NCBI GenBank assembly: GCA_018825785.1
Contig: JAHKAY010000029.1
Location: 4,143-68,142 of the forward strand
DNA from: Chloroflexota bacterium
GTDB taxonomy: Bacteria; Chloroflexota; Dehalococcoidia; JACVQG01; JAHKAY01
Length of the DNA: 64,000 nucleotides
Direction: 5' to 3'
Part shown: positions 33,637-47,480 of the stretch, piece after piece
Layout: every line of letters starts with the position of its first letter
Numbering within the stretch: the stretch's first letter is position 1
Position numbers and translations under genes: made by a program
Notes under the pieces: model-generated
Database searches by the model: none
Seen by the model: the letters and a program-made list of their open reading frames with translations, nothing else
What the model was told of the DNA's origin: nothing

Positions 33637-33638
33637 GG

Positions 33639-35602: not shown

Positions 35603-36737
35603 GGCCTATCTCCTCGTCGCTGAGGTAGCAGGCGGGGTCGGGGGCCCATATATCGCCATGGACCGCCTCCGCCCGGACCCGGAAGTTGCCCCCGCAGAGC
35701 TCCTGGTAGCGGCAGAGGCCACAGCGCCCGGTGAGGTGTTTCCTCCGCTCCCTGAGGGACTGGAGGAGGGGCTGGGAGGGGTCTTCCCATATCCGGGAAA
35801 AGGGCCTCTCCTTCAAATTACCCAGGGAATAATGCCTCCAGAACTGGTCGGGGTGGACCCCTCCCCTCTCATCTATGGCCCCGATGCCCACCCCTGAGCT
35901 GTTCCCCCCGTTCTTTAAGAGTTCCCGGTAGATATCTTCCGCCCTGCCCGGCTCACCCTCCCGGAGCCTGAGGTAGAGATAGACGCTGTCGGCGTGGTTG
36001 TCCACCGTCATGACCTCCCGCATCCCGTTCCTGTTCAGCTCCCGGGTGCGCTGGAAGATGAGGTCCATGAGGTCCCGGGTCTCCTGTGGCCCCAGGTCCC
36101 AGTCCTTTAGCTTTGAGCCCCGCCCGGAATACACCAGGTGATAGAAACACAGGCGGTCAATCCCTTCATCCCTGACAAGGTCGAAGATGGCGGGGACCTG
36201 GGGGGCATTGTGGCGGGTGAGGGTGAAGCGCACCCCCGTCCTTATCCCCGCCTCTCGTATATGCCCCAGCCCCTGGAGGGCCTCCCGGAAGGCCCCCTTT
36301 TTCCCGCGGAAGCGGTCATGGGCCTCCTCCAGCCCGTCCAGGCTCACCCCCACGTAGGAAACCCCGGCTTTCTTCAGGGCCGAGGCCATCTCCCCGGTGA
36401 TGAGGGTGCCATTGGTGGAGATTACCGCCTTCATTCCCCTTTGAGTGGCATGGGCCACCAGCTCCAGGAGGTCCTCCCTGATAGTGGGTTCCCCCCCCGA
36501 GAAGAGGACGACCGGGACGCCGTAGCTGGCCAGGTCTTCCAGCAGGGCCTTGCCCTCGGCCGTACTCAGTTCTCCCTCTGTCCTCTCCCTGGCCTCGGCA
36601 TAGCAGTGGAGGCAGTGGAGGTTACAGCGCTGGGTGAGGTTCCACACCACCACCGGGCGGCGGTGCCGGGCCGGGCCGTAGCGCAGGGAGTCGCCTGGCA
36701 TGGGAAGCCCCAGCAGGAGACGGGTTACAGATAGCAT
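35595..36737 (-). CDS. NirJ-like radical SAM/SPASM protein (AhbC or AhbD heme-biosynthesis enzyme)
   Basis: CNLHCLHCY radical-SAM motif, SGGEP, and a C-terminal CGLCRYQELCGG auxiliary cluster. Confidence 0.72.
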   Translation of the reverse strand: MLSVTRLLLGLPMPGDSLRYGPARHRRPVVVWNLTQRCNLHCLHCYAEARERTEGELSTAEGKALLEDLASYGVPVVLFSGGEPTIREDLLELVAHATQRGMKAVISTNGTLITGEMASALKKAGVSYVGVSLDGLEEAHDRFRGKKGAFREALQGLGHIREAGIRTGVRFTLTRHNAPQVPAIFDLVRDEGIDRLCFYHLVYSGRGSKLKDWDLGPQETRDLMDLIFQRTRELNRNGMREVMTVDNHADSVYLYLRLREGEPGRAEDIYRELLKNGGNSSGVGIGAIDERGGVHPDQFWRHYSLGNLKERPFSRIWEDPSQPLLQSLRERRKHLTGRCGLCRYQELCGGNFRVRAEAVHGDIWAPDPACYLSDEEIGLA

Positions 36738-37354
36738 CAGGGGACCTCCTTTTGATAGGCCTCGACCAGGGAAAGAAGGACCCGGTCCATCAGCCCGATT
36801 ACCCGAGGAAAGGCCTCAAGGGCCCTCCTGTTGACCGGCTGGCGGTCCCGAAGCACCTCCAGGGCGCTATCCACAATGCCGCTGCGGTAAAGGGTGAAGA
36901 CCTCCAGGGCCTCCGGGAGGGGCAGGCCCAGCCCCCCAAGGTGCCGGCCGTATTCCTCCCCCAGGGCCCGGGCCTCTTCCAGCAAGGCCTCCCGGCGGGA
37001 GGGGTGGGTAATATGGAGGACAAGGAGCTCAACCAGCCTTCTCCCCCTCTCCCTGAACTGGAGGCGTTGCTCTTCTCCCAGGGCCCCATACCAGGGCCTG
37101 GCCAAGAAGTATTGGCGGGCCATCCCCTGCTGGAGGGCGCGTTCTTCTATCCGGGCCACCAGGCCTTTCACTCCCTGGGCCTTGTGATGGCTCCGCAGAA
37201 AGGCTTCCAGGTCCGCCTCCTCATACCGGCGGTGGCCACCCGGGGTGACAAAGGCCTTTACCATGCCCTCATCGGTCCAATGACGGAGGGTGGTCTGGCT
37301 TACCCCCAGGAACAGACTCGCCTGGCCCAGGGTCAGCCTCTTTCCCCCCTTCAT
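36737..37354 (-). CDS. MerR-family transcriptional regulator (first gene of the hem/ahb operon)
   Basis: N-terminal HTH LTLGQASLFLGVSQTTLRHWTDEGMV. A promoter-like TTGCAC-N17/18-TACAAT lies upstream at 37418-37447. Confidence 0.65.
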   Translation of the reverse strand: MKGGKRLTLGQASLFLGVSQTTLRHWTDEGMVKAFVTPGGHRRYEEADLEAFLRSHHKAQGVKGLVARIEERALQQGMARQYFLARPWYGALGEEQRLQFRERGRRLVELLVLHITHPSRREALLEEARALGEEYGRHLGGLGLPLPEALEVFTLYRSGIVDSALEVLRDRQPVNRRALEAFPRVIGLMDRVLLSLVEAYQKEVP

Positions 37355-37417
37355 TCTATACCCAGACCGCAGCTCTCAAATACCATAGGAATCTATTAAA
37401 ATCCGCACAATGTAAAC

Positions 37418-37447
37418 GATTGTAACAGAAAAGGGCGGAGGGTGCAA
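37418..37447 (-). promoter_or_regulatory. sigma70-like promoter upstream of the MerR-hem operon
   Basis: Minus-strand TTGCAC (37447-37442), a 17-18 nt spacer, then TACAAT (37423-37418). Confidence 0.4.
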
Positions 37448-37464
37448 GGGCCTTTTTGAGGGTT

Positions 37465-37881
37465 TTAGCGGATGGTCAGCTCTTCCTCCGTGACCCGGCC
37501 CTGCCGGATAAAGAAGGCCCGGACCTGGGGGGCCTTGGGGTCCTGGAGGGAGATGATGAAGTACAGGGCGTCGGGCCAGAAGCCCAGCTCGACATCGGTG
37601 GCCGAGGGGTGGGCCTGGGTATGGGTATGGGAATGGTAGATGCCCAGAAGCTCCCACCCTTGCTTTTCTATCTCCTGGAGTAGCTGATAGAGCTCTTTGG
37701 GGTCCAGGCTGTAGCGTATGGGGCTCTTCAGTGCGTTGCGGGCGGTATAGACCCTCAGGACCTTGTGGTCCTTCCCCGCCAGGAGGCCGCAGCATTCGTC
37801 CGGGGCCTCCCGGCGAGCATGGTCTATCATTTCCTGGGCGAAGCCCTTCTCCAAAAGGAACAAGTTAGTTACCCCGCTCAA
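37465..37881 (-). CDS. mec: JAMM/MPN+ metalloprotease (Mec+/CysO-processing type)
   Basis: EAPDECCGLL plus the JAMM motif HSHTHTQAHPSATD (HxHx7Sx2D). Confidence 0.8.
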   Translation of the reverse strand: MSGVTNLFLLEKGFAQEMIDHARREAPDECCGLLAGKDHKVLRVYTARNALKSPIRYSLDPKELYQLLQEIEKQGWELLGIYHSHTHTQAHPSATDVELGFWPDALYFIISLQDPKAPQVRAFFIRQGRVTEEELTIR

Positions 37882-38379
37882 TTATAGCGCGGAAGCAGTT
37901 GCCCTGGGACCTCCATCCGGAGGGAATATGGTGGCCACCCGCCTGGCGACCTTGAGCATGGCATTGCCGGTGACGATAGCCTTGGCCGTGAACTTGGGCC
38001 TCTGGTAGACCCTGCGCATGGGCTCCACCTTGAACTGACGGTCAATAAAGGCAGTAGCTGGGTTCGCTTCTCCGCAGAATATTTGCCTTGCCAGGCTGTA
38101 GCTGCTGGAGACCATGAAATCATGCTTGTCCCCGGGGACCTCTGTGCCCAGCCACAAGCGCCTCACGGTCCCCTTCTCCAGATGGACAAGGACAACCAGT
38201 TGGGGGCCGCCATGTATCTCCCTGAGGCTTTGGGGAAGCTCCGTGACCACATATATCAAAATCAGGCTGAAACTCTGCGCCAGTTTCCCAAAGCTCTTGT
38301 CGGTGCCTCTGGCGGCCTGGATCGCTCTAACTGCCTCGTGCACCCATTCCGGCGACAGAAAAAGATACTCCTCCTTCAT
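37882..38379 (-). CDS. SCP2 sterol-carrier-like domain protein
   Basis: C-terminal DFMVSSSYSLARQIFCGEANPATAFIDRQFKVEPM matches the SCP2 fold pattern. Confidence 0.45.
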   Translation of the reverse strand: MKEEYLFLSPEWVHEAVRAIQAARGTDKSFGKLAQSFSLILIYVVTELPQSLREIHGGPQLVVLVHLEKGTVRRLWLGTEVPGDKHDFMVSSSYSLARQIFCGEANPATAFIDRQFKVEPMRRVYQRPKFTAKAIVTGNAMLKVARRVATIFPPDGGPRATASAL

Positions 38380-38396
38380 AGCTGTTTTCCCTCCCC

Positions 38397-38813
38397 TTAC
38401 ACATAGATGACAGAGCTGTCAGCCATGTCTTCTGAGACAAACCTGACCACACTGCGGACCTCGTCCACTTCCTCCACCAACTCACCAAAAACGATGTTGT
38501 GCAGGTCCATAGCTGCGGGGCAGGCATAGACCCTGCCTCCCAGCTTCTTGAGGTCATCCAGCAGTTCCGAGACCGGGGAAACGCTGCCCTTCTCAATCCC
38601 CGCCTTGACCCGCTCTCTTATCCAGCCTCCGGTTTCATCGCCCAATTCGTCGGTAAGGCCTCTCTTCAGCCGGATAACCGCCCCGTGGCCGAAAAGGACG
38701 CGGACGTCCTTACCCATGGCGGCTGCTGCGGCTGCCACGCCCAGGGCGAAGGCAACGCGTTCATATGAGGCGCTGTTGATTATGAAGGCCAGTTTATCCC
38801 CGGGTTTCGTCAT
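38397..38813 (-). CDS. DsrE/DsrF/TusD-like sulfur-relay protein
   Basis: 138 aa with the KLAFIINSASYERVAFAL Rossmann-like start and the conserved Cys in VYACPAAMD. Confidence 0.6.
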   Translation of the reverse strand: MTKPGDKLAFIINSASYERVAFALGVAAAAAAMGKDVRVLFGHGAVIRLKRGLTDELGDETGGWIRERVKAGIEKGSVSPVSELLDDLKKLGGRVYACPAAMDLHNIVFGELVEEVDEVRSVVRFVSEDMADSSVIYV

Positions 38814-38834
38814 GAGGCCCGTCTCGGTTGGGTA

Positions 38835-39329
38835 CTATGCCTTCCTGGTCCTGACATTCTGTGCCCATTCCAGCAAAGGCAGCCCCACCTTTCGGACGGC
38901 CTCAAAGTGCTTGCCCATCGCCTCAACTTCCGTGCTGGTAAGCCTTTCCGAGAACAGGGTTAGCCCCTCGCATTCAATGGGGTGAGGCAGAATCTCGCTC
39001 CGGACCAGAGCCACGACCTTTTTGGCCTCAGCTTCTGTTATCTCACCCTTGCCCAGGATTTGCGCCAGCTGCCTGGCGGCCCGGACGATTCGGTCGTGAA
39101 CGCCGAAGAGATATTCCTTGTATTCCGGCCCGTAGAACCTCTCCAGGGTGGGGTAGAAACTCTCCTCCTCCCACTGGAAGTGGGGTCCGCCAAGCTTGTC
39201 AAGGCGTAGCAGCAACTCCAGGGCTTTGGCGGCGTCACGACGGCTTGCGGCCACAATGATGTCCAGGAGGATGTCTCTCACCTTGGTGTGGTCAGCCTTT
39301 AGCTCCGCGATTGCATCCAGTCTTGCCAT
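38835..39329 (-). CDS. hemerythrin-like (HHE cation-binding) domain protein
   Basis: Spaced His/Glu ligands (ADHTKV, PHFQWEEE, VHDRIV, HPIECE, KHFEAV). Confidence 0.45.
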   Translation of the reverse strand: MARLDAIAELKADHTKVRDILLDIIVAASRRDAAKALELLLRLDKLGGPHFQWEEESFYPTLERFYGPEYKEYLFGVHDRIVRAARQLAQILGKGEITEAEAKKVVALVRSEILPHPIECEGLTLFSERLTSTEVEAMGKHFEAVRKVGLPLLEWAQNVRTRKA

Positions 39330-39404
39330 TGTCCTCTACCTCCCTCTTTCCGTTGTTGACGGAATAGCATGCTCTGAGCGTGTCTTCCGCTTGGCCTCAC
39401 CTCC

Positions 39405-39632
39405 TCAGGAATCGCCTCCCCGCTTGATCAAGACGCGGAAAAAGCTGTCCTGGGGGACCACCCGGACAATCCGGTGGCCTTCGCCGGCGGCGGAGCGGGG
39501 TACATTGCGGATGGGCTCCCCATCATCCAGCCAGACCTCAATCACATCCCCCGGCTCCAGCTCCTCTAGGGCCAGTTTGGTCTTGACCCAGTTCATGGGG
39601 CAGATGCAACCCCTCAGGTCCAGCGTCTTCAA
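39405..39632 (-). CDS. tusA: TusA-like sulfurtransferase (CPxP motif)
   Basis: 75 aa with LDLRGCICPMNWVKTKLALEEL, the TusA/SirA signature. Confidence 0.75.
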   Translation of the reverse strand: MKTLDLRGCICPMNWVKTKLALEELEPGDVIEVWLDDGEPIRNVPRSAAGEGHRIVRVVPQDSFFRVLIKRGGDS

Positions 39633-40591
39633 GCTTCCGCCTCCGGGTCCCAGGTGTGGAGCACCCGGTACTCTATCCCTTTTGGCCGGGAGCCGGCGCG
39701 GTCCCAGTCTTGGACGGTAGTGAACTCGGGGAGGGCTTCCTTCTTGAGCCTCTCCAGGCCCAGCCGGTCTATGGCGGTGCCGAAGCGCTCCCCCTTCTTG
39801 GCGTTCCGCTGGTACCAGGCCACACAGCGCTCTATGACCTTGAAGGTGTCATCATCACTGACGAAGTCGGCCACCCGGTTGGACCAGCGGGGGAAGCGGC
39901 CGTGCTTGCCCCCCACATAGACGGCATGGCCCACCCTCCCCACCACCCAGGCCAGGGTGGGACAGCAGTAGACGCACTCCCCGCAGTGGGTACAGCGCTC
40001 CTCAATCCACCTGGGCAAGTTGGTCTCCTCATTCATAACCAGGGCTTCCCCCGCCCGGGAGCGGCAGAGCTGGACGCAGAGGGTGCAACCATTGCACAGC
40101 TCCGGGATGAGCTTGGGCTCCACCATGCCGTGGAAGCCCAGGTCGTTCTCCTGGGGGTTGGCACAGCCGATGTTGCAGCCAGAATAGGAGACCTTGAACT
40201 TGGCGGGGCAATGGATGCCAAAGTATTTCTCGTCAGCCTGGGCCGCCAGGGCAGGGGCATCCACCCTGCCGTAGGGATTAACCCGGCAGCCCTGGCAGGC
40301 GGTTACGGCCCTCACCCGGGGGCCGCAGTTGGCCAGCCTCAGGCCCGAGGCCTCTATCTCCTCCTTTATCCGGTCCAGGTCCTCCCCCTTCACATAGGGG
40401 ACCTCCACGGACTGCTGGAAGGTGAAATGGCAGTAGCCCCGGCCGTATTTCTTGGCCAGCTCCGCCGCCCGGATTAGCTTGTCTGCCTCCAGGTTTCCCC
40501 CCGGAACCCTGAGCCGGACCACGAAGTATTCCCGCTCGGTCTGGCGGATAATCCCTGTGGCCTTCAGGCCACGGACATCCAGCGCCTTCAA
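39629..40591 (-). CDS. small assimilatory-type sulfite reductase (siroheme/[4Fe-4S] nitrite-sulfite reductase fold fused to ferredoxin domain)
   Basis: Cys clusters CQGC, CPAKF ... CNIGCANP and ferredoxin-type CNGCTLCVQLC and CTHCGECVYCCP. Sits next to cysH and tusA. Confidence 0.55.
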   Translation of the reverse strand: MKALDVRGLKATGIIRQTEREYFVVRLRVPGGNLEADKLIRAAELAKKYGRGYCHFTFQQSVEVPYVKGEDLDRIKEEIEASGLRLANCGPRVRAVTACQGCRVNPYGRVDAPALAAQADEKYFGIHCPAKFKVSYSGCNIGCANPQENDLGFHGMVEPKLIPELCNGCTLCVQLCRSRAGEALVMNEETNLPRWIEERCTHCGECVYCCPTLAWVVGRVGHAVYVGGKHGRFPRWSNRVADFVSDDDTFKVIERCVAWYQRNAKKGERFGTAIDRLGLERLKKEALPEFTTVQDWDRAGSRPKGIEYRVLHTWDPEAEA

Positions 40592-40610
40592 GCCTTCCTC
40601 CTTCTCCTTT

Positions 40611-41351
40611 TCATTTGCCCTTTGCTGACGACTGGGCAGAGGAGGAGACCTTCAGGGGTCGGGTATGGATGCCGCACTCGCCGCCGCACTTGCTGGTGCC
40701 CGCCCAGCGGCCGGCCCGCTCGCTGGCACCGGCGGTAATCCGGGTGCACACCACGCAGCCCAGGGAACGGTAGCCAAGGGCATATAGCGGGTTAACGGGG
40801 ACCTGGTTGAGGGCGAGATACTGCCATACCTCTCGCTCGTGCCACAGGAGGATGGGATTGAGCTTGATAAGGCCCTTGTCCCGCTCCTCAATTTCCCGGT
40901 AGTCGGTGCGGGTGCGTCCTTCCGTGCAGCGCAGCCCGGTTACCCAGCAGGCCACATTCATCTCTTCCAGGGCCCACCGCGTCGGCGTTACCTTGAGGAT
41001 GTCACAGCAACGGTCCGGGTCAAAGCGATAGAGCTCATCAGGGAGGGGCTCGTCGTTGCGGAAGACCCGGAGTTCGGGGAACCGGGCCACTTCCTCCTCC
41101 ATGAACCTGACGGTCTCTGGTGGCTTGAAACGGGTGGTAATAATGAACCCGCGGATGTCCGGCGAAACACGCTTGGCCAGGTGCCACACGGCAATGGAGT
41201 CCTTGCCCAGGCTATTGGCTACCACCAGGCGGTCGCCAAACTCCTGGTAGGCCTCTCTGATAAGTCCCAGGGAGCGGTCCACCTTCTGGGCGAAGTTGAG
41301 ATTTTCCACGAGGTACCATAGCTCTTCCGAGCTCAGGTTCTGCATCTTCAT
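40611..41351 (-). CDS. cysH: adenylyl-sulfate/phosphoadenylyl-sulfate reductase (CysH family; Fe-S type with CC...CxxC)
   Basis: PAPS-reductase fold (SLGKDSIAVWHLA P-loop), RCCD and CVVC cysteines, and C-terminal ECGIH. Confidence 0.75.
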   Translation of the reverse strand: MKMQNLSSEELWYLVENLNFAQKVDRSLGLIREAYQEFGDRLVVANSLGKDSIAVWHLAKRVSPDIRGFIITTRFKPPETVRFMEEEVARFPELRVFRNDEPLPDELYRFDPDRCCDILKVTPTRWALEEMNVACWVTGLRCTEGRTRTDYREIEERDKGLIKLNPILLWHEREVWQYLALNQVPVNPLYALGYRSLGCVVCTRITAGASERAGRWAGTSKCGGECGIHTRPLKVSSSAQSSAKGK

Positions 41352-41387
41352 TCTTTCTTTCCTCCCCCCGTTGCCAGATAGTTTCTT

Positions 41388-42215
41388 TCAGGCCAAGAGC
41401 CAGCCCACTACTCTCACATTCAAGGCTATGAGGAGCGAGCCCACCAGAAAGGCGAGAGCTTTGGGTGAAATGCCGCGGCAGATATAGGCGGCCAGGGGTG
41501 CCACCATGATGCCCCCGGCAGCCAGGGCCAGCACCAGGCCGATGGGGAACTGGTCCAGCCCTATCCTTAGAAGGATGGTGACCGCCACCGTAACAGCCAC
41601 GAAGAACTCGGCGAGGTTCACTGTGCCTATGGCATGGCGGGGCTGCCCTTTCTCCAGGAGCAGGACGCCTGATGTGGCTATGGGGCCATAGGCGCCACTG
41701 AAGCCGTTGACCAGGGCAGCCAGGAACCCTAAGGCGCCCAGCTTGGCCTTGGAATTATTCCTGGCGTTTTCCGCAAGCAACTGCCATTTCCCTCTGGGGC
41801 ACTGTTTGCATTTTTCACCTTGCGCCTCAGCGCAGGGAACCTGCCAGCGCAGGGCGCGCCAGACAATGAGGAGCCCCATGACCAGCAACAGGACGCTCAC
41901 CACGGGCTTGGCTGTTTGCGACGATATGGAGGTCAGCAGATAGCCCCCCAGAAAACCGCCTAACACCCCGCTCAATGCCAGGGGCAGAAGCCAGTCCCGG
42001 CGCACGTTGCCCAGGCCCCAGTGGGACAGTCCCGAGGCCAGCCCGGTAATAATCTTTGCAGCGTTGACTGTTGCCACTGCCACGGCAGGAGCAAAGCCTG
42101 TGGCCACCATCAGGGAAGCGGAGAAGACCCCAAACCCCATGCCCAGGCTACCATCCACCAGCTGGGCCACCGCCCCGATACCAGCCACTCCAAGAAAGAC
42201 AAGCAGTCCTGTCAT
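41388..42215 (-). CDS. TauE/SafE (TSUP) family anion permease
   Basis: 275 aa, two 4-TM repeats with Gly-rich helices, and a central Cys-rich loop. Confidence 0.65.
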   Translation of the reverse strand: MTGLLVFLGVAGIGAVAQLVDGSLGMGFGVFSASLMVATGFAPAVAVATVNAAKIITGLASGLSHWGLGNVRRDWLLPLALSGVLGGFLGGYLLTSISSQTAKPVVSVLLLVMGLLIVWRALRWQVPCAEAQGEKCKQCPRGKWQLLAENARNNSKAKLGALGFLAALVNGFSGAYGPIATSGVLLLEKGQPRHAIGTVNLAEFFVAVTVAVTILLRIGLDQFPIGLVLALAAGGIMVAPLAAYICRGISPKALAFLVGSLLIALNVRVVGWLLA

Positions 42216-42330
42216 CGGCCTGAACCTAGACTCCTGTCTATAACCGAGCCCAGCCCAAGGGTGGCCGCCCTACCCTGCGATGACCCTAGAGCCACCAGCC
42301 TGCTCACCGACTTCAGTCCCCCCTCGCTTT

Positions 42331-42382
42331 GTTTAGTTGATTACTAAACAATCATTGTAGCGGTTTCTGTGGATTTGTCAAG
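42331..42382 (-). promoter_or_regulatory. sigma70-like promoter with 19-bp palindromic operator GTTTAGT-N5-ACTAAAC (putative Rrf2/CymR site) for the tauE-cysH-sir-tusA... operon
   Basis: Minus-strand TTGACA (42382-42377), a 17-nt spacer, TACAAT (42359-42354), then 4 nt and the operator at 42349-42331. It nearly matches the site at 45961-45979. Confidence 0.55.
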
Positions 42383-42526
42383 GGGGTATTGTAACGCTTA
42401 TTAACCGCAGGCCGTGCCTGGAGGCGGGGCTCCGGTTCCTCCAGGGGCTCTGCCGGGGGCTGTCCTGGTGAGCCCCTCTGCCTTCGGGTTTGCGGCCGGG
42501 GGGGCTCTATAGTTTATTCGTAAAGG

Positions 42527-42808
42527 TTAGCTTCCGCTACCACCCGATACGGCGGGCAAGATGGAGACTACATCCCCGTCCTTTAGCTGGGTCTCCAGGC
42601 CCTTCAAGAAGCCCGCGTCCTCGTCATTGACGAAGATATTGACGAAGGGCCTCATGCTGCCATCAGGCTCCAGGACCCTCTCCTTGAACCCGGGGTAGTC
42701 GGCTTCCAGATTGCTCACGAGTTCCCGCAGGTCCTTTCCTTCCGCATTCACAACCCTGGCCCCTCGCATCAACGGTCTCAGGGGGGTAGCCAGATGAACT
42801 TCTATCAT
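42527..42808 (-). CDS. cysO: ThiS/MoaD-like sulfur carrier protein (CysO-like) with C-terminal GG followed by an SGS extension
   Basis: 93 aa with a beta-grasp pattern, ending ...DGDVVSILPAVSGGSGS. Adjacent to the E1-like gene. Confidence 0.7.
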   Translation of the reverse strand: MIEVHLATPLRPLMRGARVVNAEGKDLRELVSNLEADYPGFKERVLEPDGSMRPFVNIFVNDEDAGFLKGLETQLKDGDVVSILPAVSGGSGS

Positions 42809-42810
42809 TT

Positions 42811-43560
42811 TCAGCTCCTTTCTGGATTCCCGCAGACGGGACAGTCTGGGTTTCTGCGCACTTTCAAGCGCCGAAATCTCATAAATTGGCCATCAGTGAG
42901 CACTAGATTGCCATTGGTTGGTTCGCCTATGCCTGTAATCAGCTTCAATGCCTCCATCGTCTGCAGGCTGGCCACGCTGGCGGGTGTAGCGCCCAGGACA
43001 GGGAAGGGCTTGACCTCAGGAGGGAGCGAGGGCAGGAGGCACTGCAGACAGGCTGTCTTGCCGGGCATTACGGTCATCAACCTCGCCTCCAGCCCGTAGA
43101 TAGCGGCGTGGACAAAGGGAATATTCAGCTCAAAGCAGGCCCGGTTCAGGGCAAATCTCGTCTTGAAATTGTCCATACCGTCCATGACCACATCCGAGCC
43201 GCTTATCAGCTCCTTAACGTTAGCCTCCGTTATCTCCACTGTCAGACCCTTGATTTGGATTGTCGGGTTTAGCTGACGCAGTTTTTCCACTGCTGAATCA
43301 ACCTTATGTCTGCCAATGTCCTTATCCCAGTGGAGGACCTGCCTGTTGAGATTGCTCAGTTCCACCTTGTCCTTGTCAATGAGGATAAGCCTACCTACCC
43401 CGGCTGCCGCCAGGTAAATAGATAGGGGGCACCCCAATCCTCCCACACCGGCTACCACTATCGTAGCCGATTTCACCTTCTTCTGCCCCTCTTCCCCCCA
43501 ACCCGGAATCCTCATCTGCCTATCATAGCGTTGAAGCTCTTCGGGTGTCAGTTGGACCAT
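42811..43560 (-). CDS. moeB: MoeB/ThiF-family E1-like adenylyltransferase
   Basis: MVQLTPEELQRYDRQ ... GVGGLGCP nucleotide motif and a C-terminal CxxC (CPVCGN). SD aaaggggag sits 6 nt upstream of the ATG at 43560. Confidence 0.85.
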   Translation of the reverse strand: MVQLTPEELQRYDRQMRIPGWGEEGQKKVKSATIVVAGVGGLGCPLSIYLAAAGVGRLILIDKDKVELSNLNRQVLHWDKDIGRHKVDSAVEKLRQLNPTIQIKGLTVEITEANVKELISGSDVVMDGMDNFKTRFALNRACFELNIPFVHAAIYGLEARLMTVMPGKTACLQCLLPSLPPEVKPFPVLGATPASVASLQTMEALKLITGIGEPTNGNLVLTDGQFMRFRRLKVRRNPDCPVCGNPERS

Positions 43561-43633
43561 TACTACTCCCCTTTCTTCTTGCCTGTTGCGCTCCGCGGTC
43601 ACGTTGGACCTCTTCCCCTTGAAGCCTGAGGTT

Positions 43634-44566
43634 TTACCACCAGGGCTGGGTCTGGACCCGGGGCTCTATCTCCTCCAGGGGGCGGGTCCAGAGCTGGGTG
43701 GAGAGGTATTTCCAGCCCCCGTCGGCCAGGAGGGCCACGATGTTGCCCTTCTCTAGTTGCTGGGCCACCTTGAGGGCGCAGGAGATGACGGCTCCGGAGG
43801 AGATGCCGGCGAAGATGCCTTCCCTCTCTGTCAGCTCCCGGGTGGCCCGGATGGACTCCCGGGAGTCCACTATTGTCCTCCTGTCCAGGAGGCTTATGTC
43901 CAGGATGGGTGGGATGAAGCCCTCCTCCAGGCTCCTCAGGCCCTCGATGGTGTCCCCGGGGTTGGGGGCCACGGCTATCACCCTGGCCCTGGGGTCATGC
44001 TCCTTGAGCCTCCTCCCCACCCCCATGAGGGTGCCGCCGGTGCCCAGCCCGGCCACAAAGACATCCACCTGGGGCAGCTCTTCCAGTATCTCTTCAGCGG
44101 TGGTCTCGTAGTGCGCCCGGGGGTTGGCGGGGTTGCCGAACTGGTAGGGCATGAAATACCTGGGGTCCCGTGCCATCTCTTCGGCTATCGCTACGGCCCC
44201 GTTGGTCCCCTTGTCGGCCGGGGAGAAGACGATCTCCGTCCCGTAGAGCCGGAGTAGCTCTATCCTCTCCTGGCTCACGTTCTCCGGCAGCACCACCGTG
44301 AGCTTATAGCCTTTGCGCCGGGCCAGGAAGGCCAGGGAGATGCCGGTATTGCCGCTGGTGGCCTCCAGGATAGCTCCCCCGGGGGCGAGCTTCCCCTGCT
44401 GTTCTGCCTCCTCAAGCATATATCTGGCAATCCGGTCCTTGACGCTTCCGGTGGGATTATTCCCCTCCAGCTTGGCAAAGAGCCTCACCCCCTTCTTCAA
44501 GGGGAAGCGGGTGAGCTCCACTAGGGGGGTGTGGCCGATTGCGTCCACGATGTCGCGGTAGGGCAT
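43634..44566 (-). CDS. cysM: cysteine synthase (CysM-like, PLP-dependent)
   Basis: MPYRDIVDAIGHTPLVEL ... NPTGSVKDR PLP lysine and the GTGGT loop. Start ATG at 44566 with the SD gaaggaaa. Confidence 0.85.
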   Translation of the reverse strand: MPYRDIVDAIGHTPLVELTRFPLKKGVRLFAKLEGNNPTGSVKDRIARYMLEEAEQQGKLAPGGAILEATSGNTGISLAFLARRKGYKLTVVLPENVSQERIELLRLYGTEIVFSPADKGTNGAVAIAEEMARDPRYFMPYQFGNPANPRAHYETTAEEILEELPQVDVFVAGLGTGGTLMGVGRRLKEHDPRARVIAVAPNPGDTIEGLRSLEEGFIPPILDISLLDRRTIVDSRESIRATRELTEREGIFAGISSGAVISCALKVAQQLEKGNIVALLADGGWKYLSTQLWTRPLEEIEPRVQTQPWW

Positions 44567-44568
44567 GG

Positions 44569-45492
44569 CTATTTCCTTCTCCGCTCGGCCGTCTCCCCCA
44601 GGGAGACATATTTCTCTCCGCTGTCGGGGAGGATGGTGGCCACCCATTTCCCCGGGCCCAGCCTCTTGGCCACCTGGAGGGCGGCGAAGACATTGGCCCC
44701 GGAGGAGGGGCCCACGAGCAGGCCCTCCTTTCTGGCCAGGGAGGAGGCCATCTCCTGGGCCTCCTGGTCGCCCACGGCGATGACCTCGTCCAGGATATTC
44801 CGGTCCAGGATAGGGGGGACAAAGCTGGCCCCCAGGCCGGGGATGCCGTGGGGGCCGGCCTTCCCCTGAGAGAGGAGGGGAGAGCGGGCGGGCTCCACCC
44901 CGATTATCCGCACCCCCTTCAGCTCCTTCTTCAGCACCTGGCCCACCCCGGTGATGGTGCCGCCCGTGCCGATGCCAGCCACAAAGGCGTCTATTCTTCC
45001 CCGGGTGGCTCGCAGCAACTCCCGGGCGGTGGAGTGGTGGGCCTGGGGGTTGAGGGGGTTTTCAAAGGCCTTTATCCCGAGGTAGCTGGGATTGTCACCC
45101 AGGAGCTCCCCGGCCACCCGCCCCGCACCTGCCATCCCCTCGGCAGCGGGGGTGAGGACCACCTCGGCCCCCAGATAGAGGAGGAGGCGGCGAAGGGAGG
45201 GGTTGGCCCCCTCGGGCATGACGATGATGATGCGCAGGCCCTTGGCCCCCCCCACCAGGGCCAGGGAGAGTCCCAGGTTCCCCGCTGTGGCCTCCACAGC
45301 GGTATCGCCGGGCCGTAGCCGGCCCCGGGCAAAGGCCTCCTCCAGGATGAACTTGGCGACCCGGTCCTTGATGCTGCCGCTGGGGTTCCGGGACTCCAGC
45401 TTGGCCAGGACAATGGCGGGGGGGGCCAGACGGGAGAGGCGGAGGAGGGGGGTCGAGCCGATGAGGTCCAGGAGGCCAGTCTGTGCTCTCAT
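44569..45492 (-). CDS. cysK: cysteine synthase A (O-acetylserine sulfhydrylase)
   Basis: LIGSTPLLRL ... NPSGSIKDR and GIGTGGT motifs. Chosen start is the ATG at 45492. Confidence 0.85.
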   Translation of the reverse strand: MRAQTGLLDLIGSTPLLRLSRLAPPAIVLAKLESRNPSGSIKDRVAKFILEEAFARGRLRPGDTAVEATAGNLGLSLALVGGAKGLRIIIVMPEGANPSLRRLLLYLGAEVVLTPAAEGMAGAGRVAGELLGDNPSYLGIKAFENPLNPQAHHSTARELLRATRGRIDAFVAGIGTGGTITGVGQVLKKELKGVRIIGVEPARSPLLSQGKAGPHGIPGLGASFVPPILDRNILDEVIAVGDQEAQEMASSLARKEGLLVGPSSGANVFAALQVAKRLGPGKWVATILPDSGEKYVSLGETAERRRK

Positions 45493-45514
45493 CGAGCGAA
45501 TTTGTTCATGTGGA

Positions 45515-45943
45515 CTAGATATAGTACATTCCGCCCTCATGGCGGCGCTCCTGCTGGTGGGCCATCTCCCCGATGGAGATTGCGGCCAGGAGCTTCTGGG
45601 TGGCCTCATCTATTTGACGCCACACGTCCCTCTGGACACAGAGGGTTGCCTGGACGCAGTCGGAGGGCTGCTCCAGGCAGCGGAGGGACGGGGGGTTGCC
45701 CAGGGCCGCCATGACCTCGGCCACGGAGACCTGGGAGGGGTCCCGGGCCAGGACATGGCCCCCCTGCGGCCCCCTCTTGGAGGCGATAAACCCCGCCTTT
45801 CGGAGGACGGTCAATATCTGGTCCAGGTAGGGCTCGGGTATGCCCTGGCGCTGGGCAATATCACTGGTCTGGGCCACCCCTTCCGCCTGGGCCAGGTCCA
45901 CCAGCACCCTTATCCCGTAGTCCACCCGCATGCTTACCTTCAT
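45515..45943 (-). CDS. Rrf2-family transcriptional regulator (CymR/IscR-like)
   Basis: 142 aa with the Rrf2 HTH (MRVDYGIRVLVDLA ... SDIAQRQGIPEPYLDQILTVLRKAGFI). SD aaagggg upstream. Confidence 0.85.
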   Translation of the reverse strand: MKVSMRVDYGIRVLVDLAQAEGVAQTSDIAQRQGIPEPYLDQILTVLRKAGFIASKRGPQGGHVLARDPSQVSVAEVMAALGNPPSLRCLEQPSDCVQATLCVQRDVWRQIDEATQKLLAAISIGEMAHQQERRHEGGMYYI

Positions 45944-45960
45944 GCCCCACCCCTTTGATT

Positions 45961-46018
45961 GTTTAGTTTACTACTAAACTTTCTGGTGAATTATAGGCCC
46001 TGGGGGGAAATCCGTCAA
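45961..46018 (-). promoter_or_regulatory. rrf2 promoter (TTGACG-17-TATAAT) with 19-bp operator GTTTAGT-N5-ACTAAAC
   Basis: Minus-strand -35 at 46018-46013, -10 at 45995-45990 and the operator at 45979-45961. The operator is nearly identical to the one at 42331-42349. Confidence 0.55.
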
Positions 46019-46073
46019 TGGGGTCCCGGGGGAAGGTTTACGGGGCCTGGGGAAAAGGGTATAATTCAGGGCA

Positions 46074-47480
46074 GTGGAACCGCTGCATGAAGCCTGCGGT
46101 GTCTTCGGCATCTTTGCCCCCGGGGAAGATGTAGCGCGGCTTACATATTTTGCCCTCTTTGCCCTCCAGCACCGGGGCCAGGAATCGGCGGGGGTCGCCA
46201 CCACCGACGGACAGGAGATAAGGGTGGCCACCGGGATGGGGCTGGTCTCCCAGGTCTTTAGGGAGGAGTCCCTGGCCCCCCTCAAGGGCCATATGGCTAT
46301 AGGCCACACCCGTTATTCCACCATGGGCTCCTGCCGCCCCGATAATGCCCAGCCCCTCCTGGTAGAGGGGCCTCTGGGCCCCCTGGCCCTGGGGCACAAC
46401 GGCAATCTGGTCAATGCGGAATACCTGCGCCGGGAGCTGGAGGCGGCGGGCCGCACCTTTCGCACCTCCACCGATTCCGAGGTCATCGCCCATCTTGTCC
46501 AGTCGGCCCCGGACGGGAACTGGCCCGAGAAGGTCCGCTATGCCATGCGGCGGCTGGAGGGGGCCTATTCCCTGGTCCTCCTCACCCGGGACTGTCTGAT
46601 GGCGGCAAGGGACCCGATGGGGGTGAGGCCCCTCTGCCTGGGGAGGGTGAACGGGGGCTGGGCGGTGGCCTCCGAGTCCTGCGCCCTGGACCATATCGGG
46701 GGCCGTTTCGTCCGGGAGGTGGAGCCGGGAGAAATCGTACTCATCCGTGGGGGGGAATTGGAGAGCTATAGGGAGCCCTCCCCTCGCCGTGCCCTGTGCA
46801 TCTTTGAATTTATCTACTTCGCCCGCCCCGACAGCCTCATCCAGGGGCGGCTTTTGCATCTGGCCCGCCAGCGGATGGGGGTGGGGCTGGCCCGGGAGCA
46901 CCCCGTGGAGGCGGACCTGGTGATGGGGGTGCCTGACTCATCGATTGCCGCAGCCATCGGCTATGCCCGGGAGTCGGGGATACCCTTCACCGAAGGCCTC
47001 CTCAAAAACCGCTATGTAGGCCGCACTTTCATTGAGCCCGACCAGCGGCTGAGGGAGTTGGGGGTGAAGCTGAAGTTCAACCCCCTCCCCGAGGTCCTGG
47101 AGGGAAAGCGGCTGGTGGTGGTGGACGACAGCATTGTCCGGGGGACCACCACCCCCCGGGTGGTGGCTTTGCTCCGGCGGGCGGGGGTAAAGGAGGTGCA
47201 TCTGCGCATCTGCGCTCCACCCATCCGCTACCCCTGTTTCTTCGGCGTGGACATGGCCCGCCGCTTTGAGCTCATCGCCGCCCAGAAGACCATCCCCCAG
47301 ATATGCCAGCAGTTAGGGGCGGACTCCCTGGGATACCTCTCCATTGAGGGACTCCTCCGGGCGGTGGACCTGCCCCGGGAGATGTTCTGCCTGGCCTGTT
47401 TCACCGGGGAATATCCTATCCCGGTCCAGATGGAGATGGACAAGCTGGCCCTGGAGACTCTGGAGACAGGAAGGCGTTGA
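46074..47480 (+). CDS. purF: amidophosphoribosyltransferase
   Basis: Propeptide MEPLHEA followed by CGVFGIF (N-terminal nucleophile Cys), a PRTase domain and a C-terminal Fe-S Cys. GTG start immediately after a TATAAT box. Confidence 0.93.
   Translation: MEPLHEACGVFGIFAPGEDVARLTYFALFALQHRGQESAGVATTDGQEIRVATGMGLVSQVFREESLAPLKGHMAIGHTRYSTMGSCRPDNAQPLLVEGPLGPLALGHNGNLVNAEYLRRELEAAGRTFRTSTDSEVIAHLVQSAPDGNWPEKVRYAMRRLEGAYSLVLLTRDCLMAARDPMGVRPLCLGRVNGGWAVASESCALDHIGGRFVREVEPGEIVLIRGGELESYREPSPRRALCIFEFIYFARPDSLIQGRLLHLARQRMGVGLAREHPVEADLVMGVPDSSIAAAIGYARESGIPFTEGLLKNRYVGRTFIEPDQRLRELGVKLKFNPLPEVLEGKRLVVVDDSIVRGTTTPRVVALLRRAGVKEVHLRICAPPIRYPCFFGVDMARRFELIAAQKTIPQICQQLGADSLGYLSIEGLLRAVDLPREMFCLACFTGEYPIPVQMEMDKLALETLETGRR

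What the first reader, a model, noticed from the sequence alone, without database searches (positions are those of the whole stretch)
37465..45943. Extended sulfur-assimilation and protein-thiocarboxylate cluster: Rrf2-cysK-cysM-moeB-cysO(GG+SGS) | TauE-cysH-sulfite reductase-tusA-hemerythrin-dsrE-SCP2-JAMM
An 8.5-kb minus-strand region combines three modules. First, the CysO/CysM/Mec+ route of cysteine synthesis known from Mycobacterium: a ThiS-like carrier, an E1-like MoeB, a CysM and a JAMM protease. Second, a complete sulfate-reduction branch: an Fe-S-type CysH, a small siroheme sulfite reductase and a TauE permease. Third, a persulfide-relay module (TusA, DsrE-like) plus a hemerythrin-like and an SCP2 protein. 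The carrier ends ...SGGSGS, a GG followed by a 3-residue tail, so it needs proteolytic maturation. The cognate JAMM protease (HSHTHTQAHPSATD) is encoded about 5 kb away at the distal end of the second operon. TusA/DsrE alongside CysO suggests persulfide rather than free sulfide may load the carrier. That combination, with hemerythrin and SCP2 partners, is not a standard described operon.
Basis: partly seen in the sequence, partly recalled or inferred. Interest (0 to 1): 0.6.

Follow-up and report, generated by a model that had tools for sequence, protein, structure and literature searches.

The report
Cysteine-synthesis regulon with new sulfur-handling trio
This is a real pair of co-regulated operons in a Chloroflexi bacterium that make cysteine through a sulfur-carrier protein, a known kind of system, but it contains a rare, undescribed three-gene module (hemerythrin-like, DsrE-like, SCP2-like) that also sits beside sulfur-transfer genes in distant bacteria and archaea.

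Summary
All 13 minus-strand ORFs exist at the stated coordinates, and 12 pass Pfam thresholds for the named families. The thirteenth ('SCP2') has no Pfam hit, but a confident model matches solved SCP2 structures.

The closest solved relatives are the Mycobacterium tuberculosis proteins CysM (2e-88, O-phosphoserine Arg220 conserved) and CysO (1e-20). The sulfite reductase matches the C-terminal half of Fsr. The carrier ends GG+SGS, and all eight close relatives also carry a tail after GG, each different.

The genes form two operons. Each follows a near-consensus promoter and the same palindrome, TGTTTAGT-N5-ACTAAACA, which is probably the Rrf2 operator.

The full order recurs in a relative at 73-91% protein identity. 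Two other relatives are deletion variants.

- ThiS/JAB/E1-without-rhodanese/SirA(TusA)/PAPS-reductase/sulfite-reductase operons were described in 2006.
- The branch is not complete. No ATP sulfurylase was found among the window ORFs I tested.

The new element is the Hr-DsrE-SCP2 trio. It is rare, occurs in Chloroflexi, Methanoperedens and Nitrososphaerota, and usually lies beside TusA, ThiF-type E1, CysM-like enzymes, JAB or sulfite reductase. Its role as a sulfur relay is an inference.

The parts
45990..46018 (-). Promoter-like site of operon 1 (TTGACG-17-TATAAT)
   Evidence: It matches 11 of 12 consensus positions and lies immediately upstream of operator 1 and Rrf2.
45960..45980 (.). Operator 1: palindrome TGTTTAGT-N5-ACTAAACT
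   Evidence: It is one of only two window matches to TGTTTAGT-N5-ACTAAACA, against 0.02 expected. It is conserved upstream of Rrf2 in L011. Binding by Rrf2 is inferred.
45515..45943 (-). Rrf2-family regulator with Cx6Cx5C
   Evidence: Pfam Rrf2 scores 1.7e-34. CymR and IscR models match below threshold. Cysteines C89, C96 and C102 can be read directly from the sequence.
44569..45492 (-). CysK-type O-acetylserine sulfhydrylase (the ORF extends to 45609; the probable start is internal)
   Evidence: PALP scores 2.3e-70. TIGR01139 cysK scores 344.8 bits against a cutoff of 350.95. The best PDB hits are CysK/OASS-A enzymes at 3e-82.
43634..44569 (-). CysM of the M. tuberculosis type (probable O-phosphoserine sulfhydrylase)
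   Evidence: It matches 3dwg_A/3dki at 2.3e-88 over the full length, including the C-terminal tail. The Arg aligned to Mtb Arg220 is conserved. Its start overlaps the cysK stop by 1 nt.
42811..43602 (-). MoeB-type E1 adenylyltransferase without a rhodanese domain
   Evidence: ThiF scores 2.9e-73. It is 263 aa or fewer. It has GxGxxG and two CXXC motifs, CLQC and CPVC (motif meaning from PMC3227635).
42527..42808 (-). CysO-like ThiS/MoaD carrier ending GG+SGS
   Evidence: ThiS scores 6.8e-15. Mtb CysO 3dwg_C matches at 1.4e-20 and aligns up to GG. All close relatives have a variable tail after GG.
42354..42381 (-). Promoter-like site of operon 2 (TTGACA-16-TACAAT)
   Evidence: It matches 11 of 12 consensus positions. 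It is conserved in L011, L015, L022 and L023.
42330..42350 (.). Operator 2: perfect palindrome TGTTTAGT-N5-ACTAAACA
   Evidence: It is an exact match. The same element sits at the head of the second operon in L011, L015, L022 and L023.
41388..42215 (-). TauE/SafE-family permease
   Evidence: Pfam TauE scores 6.9e-35. Substrate and direction of transport are unknown.
40611..41351 (-). CysH, an APS/PAPS reductase with CC...CxxC and ECGIH
   Evidence: PAPS_reduct scores 2.2e-38. NF002537 scores 163 bits against a cutoff of 154. The cysteine motifs are read from the sequence.
39629..40591 (-). Small siroheme sulfite reductase with a ferredoxin insert (Fsr-C / Dsr-LP type)
   Evidence: NIR_SIR_ferr, NIR_SIR and Fer4 all match. 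The best PDB hit is the Fsr C-terminal half, 7np8, at 1e-31. Its stop overlaps the TusA start by 4 nt.
39405..39632 (-). TusA/SirA-like sulfur carrier
   Evidence: Pfam TusA scores 1.3e-22. The DLRGCICP motif with the active-site Cys is present.
38835..39329 (-). Hemerythrin-like (HHE) protein, first member of the trio
   Evidence: PF01814 scores 6.1e-10. H14, H50, E54, E55, H78, D79, H116 and C120 are invariant in 40 sequences. The AF2 model has pLDDT 94.9 and is all-helical. The top fold hit is the hemerythrin-like protein 2p0n, at a non-significant E-value.
38397..38813 (-). DsrE-like protein with a single invariant Cys98 (ACPxAM), second member of the trio
   Evidence: PF02635 scores 4.7e-8. 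Cys98 is invariant. A profile of the family hits 2qs7 at 2.8e-10 and 3pnx, with the Cys aligned.
37882..38379 (-). SCP2-fold protein, third member of the trio
   Evidence: It has no Pfam hit. The AF2 model has pLDDT 86.7. Foldseek matches 1wfr and 2cx7 at 5e-8 to 9e-7. The family has only 42 clusters at E<=1e-10 among 1.84 billion representatives.
37465..37881 (-). JAMM/MPN+ metalloprotease (Mec+/HcyD-like)
   Evidence: Prok-JAB scores 8.8e-23. PDB hits are 2kks at 1e-28 and PfJAMM1 at 4e-16. The HSHx7SxxD motif is present. It abuts the SCP2 stop with no gap.

Best explanation
This is an Rrf2-controlled two-operon regulon that converts activated sulfate into cysteine through a protein-thiocarboxylate route.

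Operon 2 supplies reduced sulfur:
- CysH reduces APS or PAPS to sulfite.
- The small Fsr-C-type siroheme reductase reduces sulfite.
- The TauE permease moves a sulfur oxyanion.

Operon 1 uses that sulfur:
- MoeB, which has no rhodanese domain, adenylates the C-terminal glycine of CysO.
- CysO is then converted to a thiocarboxylate.
- The Mtb-type CysM condenses it with O-phosphoserine.
- The JAMM protease releases cysteine.
- The JAMM protease also first trims the variable tail after GG.
- CysK provides the ordinary free-sulfide route in parallel.

Between the reductase and the protease lie TusA and a conserved trio: hemerythrin-like, DsrE-like and SCP2-like. I propose they capture the reduced sulfur as protein-bound sulfur and pass it to acceptors such as CysO-AMP, in place of the missing rhodanese domain. 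The candidate sites are a di-iron centre with an adjacent invariant Cys in the hemerythrin-like protein, the DsrE-like Cys98 and the TusA Cys.

Shown here: family memberships, operon structure, the shared operator, the conserved gene order and the recurrent neighbourhoods. Inferred: every chemical step, and in particular the relay role of the trio.
For: The family assignments all hold.

The closest solved relatives fit the proposed pathway:
- PALP2 matches Mtb CysM at 2.3e-88, with Arg220 conserved.
- The carrier matches Mtb CysO at 1.4e-20.
- The JAMM motif is intact.
- The reductase matches the Fsr C-terminal half at 1e-31.

Both operons carry an 11/12 promoter followed by the same palindrome, where 0.02 matches are expected by chance. 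The palindrome is conserved in relatives.

The full 13-gene order recurs in L023 at 73-91% aa identity, and L020 has TauE through JAMM at about 95%.

Tails after GG are present in all 8 close homologs and differ in sequence. 37 of 42 distant homologs end exactly at GG.

The trio stays together in every locus examined. It lies next to sulfur-transfer genes in most of them:
- SiR with or without CysH, plus TusA: L006, L009.
- ThiF-ThiS upstream and JAMM downstream, with no reductase: L015, L022.
- A CysM-like PALP plus TusA, with or without ThiF or ThiS nearby: L002, L028, L036.
- A YeeE-like transporter plus two TusA genes: L019.
- JAB-ThiF, or ThiF/TusA/IscS/NifU, in Nitrososphaerota: L032, L034.

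Iyer et al. 2006 noted that E1s in such operons lack rhodanese and always co-occur with SirA. Voss et al. 2011 state that the sulfur source for CysO is unknown.
Against: - No biochemistry was done.
- No ATP sulfurylase or APS kinase was found among the window ORFs tested.
- The relative L011 keeps Rrf2-cysK-cysM-MoeB-CysO-JAMM but has lost TusA, Hr, DsrE and half of SCP2. The relay is therefore dispensable for the carrier system in at least some settings.
- L006 and L009 carry SiR plus the trio with no CysO or E1 on their 14-kb contigs.
- Two contexts show no obvious sulfur genes beside the trio: Rieske/cytochrome b/multihaem genes in L001, and BcrAD/HGD-D in Methanoperedens.
- The fold match of the hemerythrin-like model is not statistically significant.
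Confidence: 0.6

Rival explanations
1. TusA and the trio serve the sulfite reductase rather than CysO. They might accept sulfur from it, much as DsrC does for DsrAB. Alternatively they might protect or repair its siroheme and Fe-S centres, with the di-iron protein acting like the RIC/YtfE proteins. Their output would feed a general sulfide or persulfide pool used by both CysK and CysM.
For: - SiR-TusA start/stop overlaps in the window and in L009 suggest translational coupling.
- L006 and L009 have SiR, TusA and the trio as a unit, with no carrier or E1 on the contig.
- The reductase is of the Dsr-like, ferredoxin-insert type.
- L011 shows that the CysO system persists without the trio.
Against: - L015 and L022 keep the trio between ThiS and JAMM after losing the reductase and TusA.
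- L002, L028, L036, L032 and L034 have the trio with PALP, TusA, ThiF or JAB but no sulfite reductase nearby.
Confidence: 0.25
2. The trio buffers, detoxifies or senses sulfide or persulfide, or senses O2 or NO. It rides along with sulfur-metabolism genes without carrying biosynthetic flux.
For: - Hemerythrin-like domains often act as O2, NO or iron sensors. This is established knowledge of PF01814.
- The trio occurs in contexts without biosynthetic sulfur genes: L001, and L003 in Methanoperedens.
- SCP2 has no known role in sulfur transfer.
Against: - The trio sits directly beside TusA in most loci, and next to CysM-like PALP enzymes or E1/JAB genes in several.
- Cys98 in the DsrE-like protein lies at the position of the sulfur-carrying Cys of DsrE-family structures.
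- The trio is under the same operator as the cysteine genes.
Confidence: 0.12
3. The co-localisation is a chance juxtaposition of independent modules in one metagenome-assembled genome, or an assembly artefact.
For: The modules occur separately elsewhere, and deletion variants exist.
Against: - The same order is seen on independent contigs from other samples, L020 and L023.
- Both operons share a promoter and operator.
- The deletion variants retain remnants: a truncated SCP2 in L011, and homology resuming inside the TusA 3' end in L015. This indicates that the full arrangement is ancestral in the clade.
Confidence: 0.03

Closest known systems
M. tuberculosis CysO-CysM-Mec+ (with MoeZR) cysteine pathway
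   Same: The carrier, the O-phosphoserine-type CysM (Arg220 conserved, C-terminal tail present) and the JAMM protease are the closest sequence relatives of the solved Mtb proteins. The pathway logic is as summarised in PMC3227635.
   Different: - The E1 is MoeB-type, with two CXXC motifs, and has no rhodanese domain.
- The carrier has residues after GG.
- The protease is encoded 4.6 kb away, at the end of a second operon.
- Sulfate-reduction genes, TusA and the trio are embedded in the system.
- The regulator is an Rrf2 protein.
ThiS/MoaD-JAB-E1 sulfur-assimilation operons, classes 4c and 4e of Iyer, Burroughs and Aravind 2006 (PMC1779556)
   Same: It shares ThiS/MoaD, JAB, an E1 lacking rhodanese, SirA (=TusA), PAPS reductase and sulfite reductase (class 4e), and a cysteine synthase (class 4c, which includes Chloroflexus).
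   Different: - It has CysM in place of O-acetylhomoserine sulfhydrylase.
- No ATP sulfurylase, APS kinase or ABC transporter was found.
- It adds the Hr-DsrE-SCP2 trio, which that survey does not mention.
Wolinella succinogenes HcyS/HcyD/HcyF/MetY, and Pseudomonas QbsE/QbsD (from my own knowledge; these papers are not in the searchable library)
   Same: In both, the carrier is made with extra residues after GG. A JAMM protease removes them before E1 activation. In Wolinella, sulfite reductase supplies the sulfur.
   Different: Those systems make homocysteine or thioquinolobactin, not cysteine. They have no hemerythrin-like, DsrE-like or SCP2-like partners.
TusA-DsrE(FH)-DsrC sulfur relay of sulfur oxidisers, and TusA-TusBCD in tRNA thiolation (from my own knowledge)
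   Same: TusA is paired with a DsrE-family protein that carries a conserved Cys at the equivalent position.
   Different: Here there is a single DsrE-like gene, with no DsrF/H or TusB/C partners. The setting is assimilatory. The protein is always paired with a hemerythrin-like and an SCP2-fold protein.

Membership tests
CysO/CysM/Mec+ protein-thiocarboxylate cysteine pathway | ThiS/MoaD beta-grasp carrier with a C-terminal Gly-Gly | tested here: met
   ThiS scores 6.8e-15. The carrier aligns to Mtb CysO through GG. Three extra residues follow GG.
CysO/CysM/Mec+ protein-thiocarboxylate cysteine pathway | CysM of the O-phosphoserine sulfhydrylase type (Arg220, C-terminal extension) | tested here: met
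   3dwg_A matches at 2.3e-88 over residues 6-324. The Arg aligned to Arg220 is conserved. Substrate use itself was not tested.
CysO/CysM/Mec+ protein-thiocarboxylate cysteine pathway | JAMM/MPN+ zinc protease with E...HxHx7Sx2D | tested here: met
   Prok-JAB scores 8.8e-23. HSHTHTQAHPSATD is present, with an upstream Glu in PDECCG.
CysO/CysM/Mec+ protein-thiocarboxylate cysteine pathway | E1 with a fused rhodanese domain (MoeZR) | tested here: not met
   The E1 is 263 aa or fewer and has a ThiF domain only. It has two CXXC motifs, as in the MoeB type.
CysO/CysM/Mec+ protein-thiocarboxylate cysteine pathway | Formation of CysO-COSH and a CysO-Cys adduct, and hydrolysis of the adduct | not testable with these tools
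   This needs biochemistry.
Class 4e sulfur-assimilation ThiS/JAB/E1 operon (Iyer et al. 2006) | ThiS/MoaD, JAB and an E1 lacking rhodanese, together with SirA/TusA | tested here: met
   The definition comes from PMC1779556.
Class 4e sulfur-assimilation ThiS/JAB/E1 operon (Iyer et al. 2006) | PAPS reductase and sulfite reductase in the neighbourhood | tested here: met
   CysH and the NIR_SIR protein are adjacent.
Class 4e sulfur-assimilation ThiS/JAB/E1 operon (Iyer et al. 2006) | ATP sulfurylase, APS kinase, an ABC sulfate transporter and O-acetylhomoserine sulfhydrylase | tested here: not met
   None was found in the cluster or among the larger window ORFs tested. A TauE permease and CysM/CysK are present instead.
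Precursor carriers matured by JAMM (HcyS-Ala/HcyD, QbsE/QbsD) | Residues after GG that must be removed before adenylation | tested here: met
   The window tail is SGS. Relatives carry N, AKA, QR, NES, AKGYLRQ, SERLALEIQ and NEGSALAIE. Cleavage itself was not tested.
SCP2 (PF02036) | SCP2 alpha/beta fold | tested here: met
   The model has pLDDT 86.7. Foldseek gives 5e-8, with target-normalised TM-score up to 0.81, to 1wfr and 2cx7.
SCP2 (PF02036) | Sequence match above the Pfam gathering score | tested here: not met
   The window protein has no Pfam hit. Only weak or faint precomputed PF02036 hits exist on homologs at about 50% identity.
DsrE/TusD family | DsrE fold-family match with the conserved sulfur-carrying Cys | tested here: met
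   PF02635 scores 33.6 bits against a cutoff of 22.7. Cys98 is invariant and aligns to the Cys of 2qs7 and 3pnx.
DsrE/TusD family | Heterohexamer partners (DsrF/H or TusB/C) | tested here: not met
   Only one DsrE-family gene is present in the window and in all related loci.
Hemerythrin/HHE (PF01814) | Four-helix bundle with His and carboxylate ligands for a di-iron site | tested here: inconclusive
   Pfam scores 40.1 bits against a cutoff of 25.3. H14, H50, E54, H78, D79 and H116 are invariant. The model is all-helical. The best fold hits (2p0n, DcrH, FBXL5-Hr) have E>=0.27. Metal content was not tested.
TusA/SirA | Conserved Cys in the N-terminal CP motif | tested here: met
   PF01206 scores 1.3e-22. 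DLRGCICP is present.
Small siroheme sulfite reductase (Fsr-C / Dsr-LP / AsrC-like) | NIR_SIR_ferr plus NIR_SIR with an inserted 2x[4Fe-4S] ferredoxin domain | tested here: met
   The domains are shown. 7np8 residues 343-609 match at 1e-31. AsrC TIGR02912 scores 136.6 bits, below its cutoff of 324, so this is not an AsrC equivalog. Sulfite versus nitrite specificity was not tested.

The most novel reading that the evidence does not exclude
Hr-DsrE-SCP2 is an unrecognised sulfur-handling complex found in both Bacteria and Archaea. It would trap nascent sulfide at the di-iron site next to the invariant Cys120, whether the sulfide comes from a sulfite reductase, a transporter or a desulfurase. It would convert that sulfide to protein persulfide on DsrE and TusA, and deliver it to E1-activated ubiquitin-like carriers and CysM-like enzymes. 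That would make it the missing physiological sulfur donor for CysO-type thiocarboxylates when the E1 has no rhodanese domain.
Probability: 0.3. Interest if true: 0.75.

Novelty: new variant of a known kind. Interest (0 to 1): 0.55.

Why it matters
The physiological sulfur donor for CysO-type protein thiocarboxylates is still unknown (PMC3227635). This locus, its natural deletion variants and the recurring trio point to concrete, testable candidate proteins.

The trio occurs beside ThiF, TusA, JAB and CysM-like genes in Chloroflexi, Methanoperedens and ammonia-oxidising-type archaea. A hemerythrin-like di-iron protein with an invariant Cys acting in sulfur trafficking would be a new role for that fold. 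An SCP2-fold protein in sulfur metabolism would also be unprecedented.

If the trio proves to be only accessory, the locus remains a well-resolved example of a known kind of operon, with a defined operator.

Tried and rejected
- Riboswitch or other RNA element in the 311-nt gap: an Rfam scan of 33000-47000 at E<=1 gave only two chance-level hits. I rejected this in favour of the promoter plus operator.
- Genome-collection scan for the SCP2-like family: only 3 loci came back, from one Chloroflexi MAG and one Methanoperedens MAG. That was too few for statistics, so contexts came mostly from exact-protein look-ups and the metagenome scan.
- Sequence search of the Hr-like and DsrE-like single proteins against the PDB: only marginal or spurious hits, such as designed armadillo repeats. 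A profile search worked for DsrE.
- Fold search of the Hr-like model: the top hits are hemerythrin-like, but their E-values are not significant.
- Literature searches for the trio or for the whole combination found nothing relevant. The Wolinella HcyS/HcyD papers are not in the library.
- I looked for ATP sulfurylase among the larger ORFs of the window and found none. Small ORFs were not all tested.
- The AsrC, CymR and IscR equivalog names were rejected because their scores fall far below the curated cutoffs.

Full report
**1. Observation**

Twelve match the named Pfam families above the gathering score:

| Gene | Pfam result |
|---|---|
| Rrf2 | 1.7e-34 |
| PALP (two genes) | 2e-70 and 2e-76 |
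| ThiF | 2.9e-73 |
| ThiS | 6.8e-15 |
| TauE | 6.9e-35 |
| PAPS_reduct | 2.2e-38 |
| NIR_SIR_ferr plus NIR_SIR | with an inserted Fer4 domain |
| TusA | 1.3e-22 |
| Hemerythrin | 6.1e-10 |
| DsrE | 4.7e-8 |
| Prok-JAB | 8.8e-23 |

The 'SCP2' ORF has no Pfam or NCBIfam hit. The assignment was confirmed in other ways. Homologs at about 50% identity carry weak PF02036 hits. An AlphaFold model built on 18 homologs has mean pLDDT 86.7. Foldseek places that model with the Thermus SCP2-like proteins 1wfr and 2cx7 at E 5e-8 to 9e-7, followed by a long list of SCP2 structures.

The source organism is an uncultured Chloroflexi bacterium (NCBI locus tag KJ624_04545).

**2. What the individual genes are**

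- **Second PALP gene.** Its closest solved relative is M. tuberculosis CysM, the O-phosphoserine sulfhydrylase. It matches 3dwg and 3dki at 2.3e-88, aligned end to end including the C-terminal tail. The arginine corresponding to Mtb Arg220 is conserved.
- **First PALP gene.** It groups with ordinary CysK enzymes and scores just under the cysK equivalog cutoff.
- **Carrier.** Its best match is Mtb CysO (1.4e-20), aligned up to the Gly-Gly.
- **E1.** It is at most 263 aa. It has only a ThiF domain and two CXXC motifs (CLQC, CPVC). By the criteria in PMC3227635 it is MoeB-type, with no rhodanese domain.
- **JAMM protein.** It has the HxHx7SxxD motif and matches 2kks (1e-28) and PfJAMM1.
- **CysH.** It passes the NF002537 cutoff. 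It carries the CC...CxxC and ECGIH motifs, which from my own knowledge mark the Fe-S-containing, APS-preferring reductases.
- **Sulfite reductase.** It is a 320-aa protein whose best solved relative is the C-terminal, siroheme half of the F420-dependent sulfite reductase Fsr (7np8, 1e-31). It is far below the AsrC equivalog cutoff.
- **Rrf2 protein.** It has a Cx6Cx5C triad, so it is probably a cluster-binding regulator. It is not an equivalog of CymR or IscR.

**3. Operon structure and regulation**

The cluster is two operons. A 311-nt gap at 42216-42526 separates CysO from TauE.

Two features repeat in front of each operon:
- A near-consensus promoter (11 of 12 positions) precedes both Rrf2 and TauE.
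- Each promoter is followed within a few bases by the palindrome TGTTTAGT-N5-ACTAAAC(A/T). These are the only two matches in 64 kb, where 0.02 are expected.

The same promoter and operator pairs are found in relatives L011, L015, L022 and L023. I infer that this is the Rrf2 operator and that the two operons form one regulon. No riboswitch or other Rfam family is present.

Within the operons the genes are tightly packed. The cysK stop and cysM start overlap by 1 nt. The SiR stop and TusA start overlap by 4 nt. SCP2 and JAMM abut.

**4. Conservation**

| Locus | Similarity to window | Gene content |
|---|---|---|
| L023 | 73-91% aa | All 13 genes in the same order, plus the downstream MerR and radical-SAM genes |
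| L020 | ~95% aa | TauE through JAMM |
| L011 | ~93% nt | Rrf2-cysK-cysM, then promoter/operator-MoeB-CysO; window 42530-38140 is missing; a truncated SCP2 remnant sits in front of JAMM |
| L015, L022 | ~86% nt (L015) | cysM-MoeB-CysO, then promoter/operator-Hr-DsrE-SCP2-JAMM; homology resumes inside the 3' end of TusA |

The remnants in L011 and L015 indicate that the full arrangement is ancestral in this clade and that the sulfate-reduction part is repeatedly lost.

**5. The tail after Gly-Gly**

The window carrier ends GG-SGS. Close relatives end in GG-N, GG-AKA, GG-QR, GG-NES, GG-AKGYLRQ, GG-SERLALEIQ and GG-NEGSALAIE. Their bodies are 74-99% identical to the window carrier.

All 8 close homologs have a tail. 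In contrast, 37 of 42 more distant homologs stop exactly at GG. A carrier 99% identical in its body has a completely different tail. This fits a segment that is cut off and is free to drift.

The requirement for proteolytic maturation is inferred. It has precedent in HcyS-Ala/HcyD and QbsE/QbsD (my own knowledge; those papers were not retrievable).

**6. The new element: a hemerythrin-like, DsrE-like and SCP2-like trio**

The SCP2-like family is very small. It has 27 hits among 5.8 billion sequences, and 42 clusters at E<=1e-10 among 1.84 billion representatives. The hemerythrin-like family is somewhat larger, with 97 hits, and includes Nitrososphaerota archaea.

In every locus with enough flanking sequence, the three genes lie together. 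The order is usually Hr-DsrE-SCP2. In one Nitrososphaerales genome it is Hr-SCP2-DsrE (hhalign 5.7e-52). In another archaeon SCP2 is divergently transcribed next to Hr-DsrE (7e-37). Two more distant SCP2-like singletons, L025 and L027, lack the partners.

Neighbours of the trio:

| Neighbouring genes | Loci |
|---|---|
| SiR and TusA | L006 |
| CysH, SiR and TusA | L009 |
| ThiF-ThiS upstream, JAMM downstream | L015, L022 |
| A 387-aa CysM-like PALP plus TusA | L002, L028, L036 |
| YeeE-type transporter plus two TusA genes | L019 |
| JAB-ThiF | L032 |
| ThiF, TusA, cysteine desulfurase and NifU | L034 |
| Rieske, cytochrome b and multihaem cytochromes | L001 |
| BcrAD/HGD-D, in Methanoperedens | L003, L014 |

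L002 and L028 also have a 376-378-aa ThiF nearby. L028 has a tailed ThiS next to a ThrC-like enzyme. L036 has TauE and IscS/NifU nearby.

Conserved residues fit sulfur chemistry:
- The DsrE-like protein has a single invariant Cys98 in ACPxAM. It aligns with the Cys of the DsrE-family structures 2qs7 and 3pnx.
- The hemerythrin-like protein has invariant H14, H50, E54, E55, H78, D79 and H116, plus an invariant Cys120 in HP(I/V)EC, across 40 sequences. Its model is a confident helical bundle (pLDDT 94.9).
- The best fold matches of that model are hemerythrin-like (2p0n, DcrH, FBXL5), but their E-values are not significant.

No paper in the searchable library links hemerythrin, DsrE and SCP2.

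**7. Mechanism**

The best-supported reading has these steps:
1. CysH and the small siroheme reductase reduce activated sulfate, through sulfite.
2. MoeB adenylates mature CysO.
3. CysO becomes a thiocarboxylate.
4. Mtb-type CysM adds O-phosphoserine.
5. JAMM releases cysteine. JAMM also trims the tail beforehand.
6. CysK uses free sulfide in parallel.

These steps follow from homology with the Mtb pathway as summarised in PMC3227635. None was tested here.

The E1 lacks a rhodanese domain, so a separate sulfur donor is expected. Iyer, Burroughs and Aravind (PMC1779556) already observed that E1s in sulfur-assimilation ThiS/JAB operons always lack rhodanese and always co-occur with SirA (TusA). 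They proposed that SirA takes over the rhodanese role.

I extend that proposal. The trio plus TusA would form the relay between the sulfur source and the acceptors. The di-iron/Cys120 site may act as the sulfide trap; this part is speculation.

Evidence against a strict requirement for the relay:
- L011 keeps the carrier system without TusA and the trio.
- L006 and L009 keep SiR plus the trio without a carrier on their short contigs.
- Two contexts have no obvious sulfur genes beside the trio.

The main rival is that the trio serves the sulfite reductase, either as a DsrC-like acceptor or for cofactor repair. L015 and L022, and the archaeal and PALP-TusA contexts, which lack a reductase, argue against that as the sole role.

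**8. Comparison with what is known, and novelty**

As a whole, the locus is a new variant of a known kind. It combines classes 4c and 4e of Iyer et al. 2006 with Mtb-type CysM and CysO, and it uses the precursor-carrier-plus-JAMM logic known from Wolinella and Pseudomonas.

It differs in these ways:
- The system is split into two operons under one operator.
- The protease is placed at the end of the sulfur-supply operon.
- It has a TauE permease instead of an ABC transporter.
- No ATP sulfurylase was found.
- It contains the trio.

The claim of a 'complete sulfate-reduction branch' is not supported. The claim that the combination is undescribed holds only for the Hr-DsrE-SCP2 part.

**9. Verdict**

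- Observation: confirmed.
- Interpretation: partly supported.
- Interest: 0.55. This is moderate for the locus as such. It would be higher if the trio proves to be the sulfur donor for CysO-type carriers, whose source is stated to be unknown.

Noticed in passing
window 26555-37354, minus strand: A full siroheme-dependent haem pathway follows directly downstream of JAMM on the same strand. It runs MerR/HTH_17, AhbC-like and AhbD-like radical SAM enzymes, a fused AhbA/B (NirDL-like), the siroheme synthase N-domain, HemA, HemC, a CobA-HemD fusion, HemB and HemL. The cofactor supply for the siroheme sulfite reductase is thus adjacent to it. The same synteny holds in L011 and L023.
   Followed up: partly
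L011 3706-3905 and 4569-5402; L015 1255-1590: These are natural deletion variants of the locus in close relatives. L011 lost TauE through the 5' half of SCP2 and gained about 0.8 kb with a 169-aa ORF between JAMM and MerR. L015 lost TauE through most of TusA. In L011 the second promoter and operator sit in front of MoeB rather than TauE.
   Followed up: yes
L003 1079-4715, L014, L013 (Candidatus Methanoperedens): In Methanoperedens the trio is followed by a BcrAD/BadFG-type activase and an HGD-D-type dehydratase-like protein, not by recognisable sulfur enzymes. A TusA domain is fused to an ABC ATPase about 9 kb downstream.
   Followed up: no
L001 5058-10507 (GCA_900174565.1): Here the trio lies directly after Rieske, cytochrome b and two multihaem cytochrome genes. 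This hints at a link to quinone or electron-transfer chemistry. It could be relevant to the SCP2 hydrophobic pocket.
   Followed up: no
L028 8329-9773, minus strand: A ThiS-like carrier ending GG+SSNPQRRS sits next to a threonine-synthase-like PLP enzyme (TIGR00260, 305 bits). This resembles carrier-dependent homocysteine/methionine routes. It lies 1.2 kb from a trio-PALP-TusA unit and a 378-aa ThiF.
   Followed up: partly
L002, L028, L036: A recurrent five-gene unit, Hr-DsrE-SCP2-PALP(387 aa)-TusA, appears in all three loci. The PALP is CysM/CysK-like only at about 148 bits, far below the cutoffs. It may be a distinct sulfhydrylase subfamily dedicated to this module.
   Followed up: partly
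window 46074-49995, plus strand: purF, purM and purH are transcribed divergently from the Rrf2 promoter region. A second promoter-like site on the plus strand at 46037-46065 shares the intergenic region with operator 1.
   Followed up: no
window 12932-14777, plus strand: A SAM methyltransferase (Methyltransf_31) is followed by an SBF/Acr3-family transporter. This may be an arsenite methylation and efflux pair.
   Followed up: no
window 42326-42447 versus L011 2510-2632: The operon-2 promoter and operator segment is 73% identical to a segment that lies between cysM and MoeB in L011. The regulatory cassette has therefore moved relative to the genes between close relatives.
   Followed up: partly
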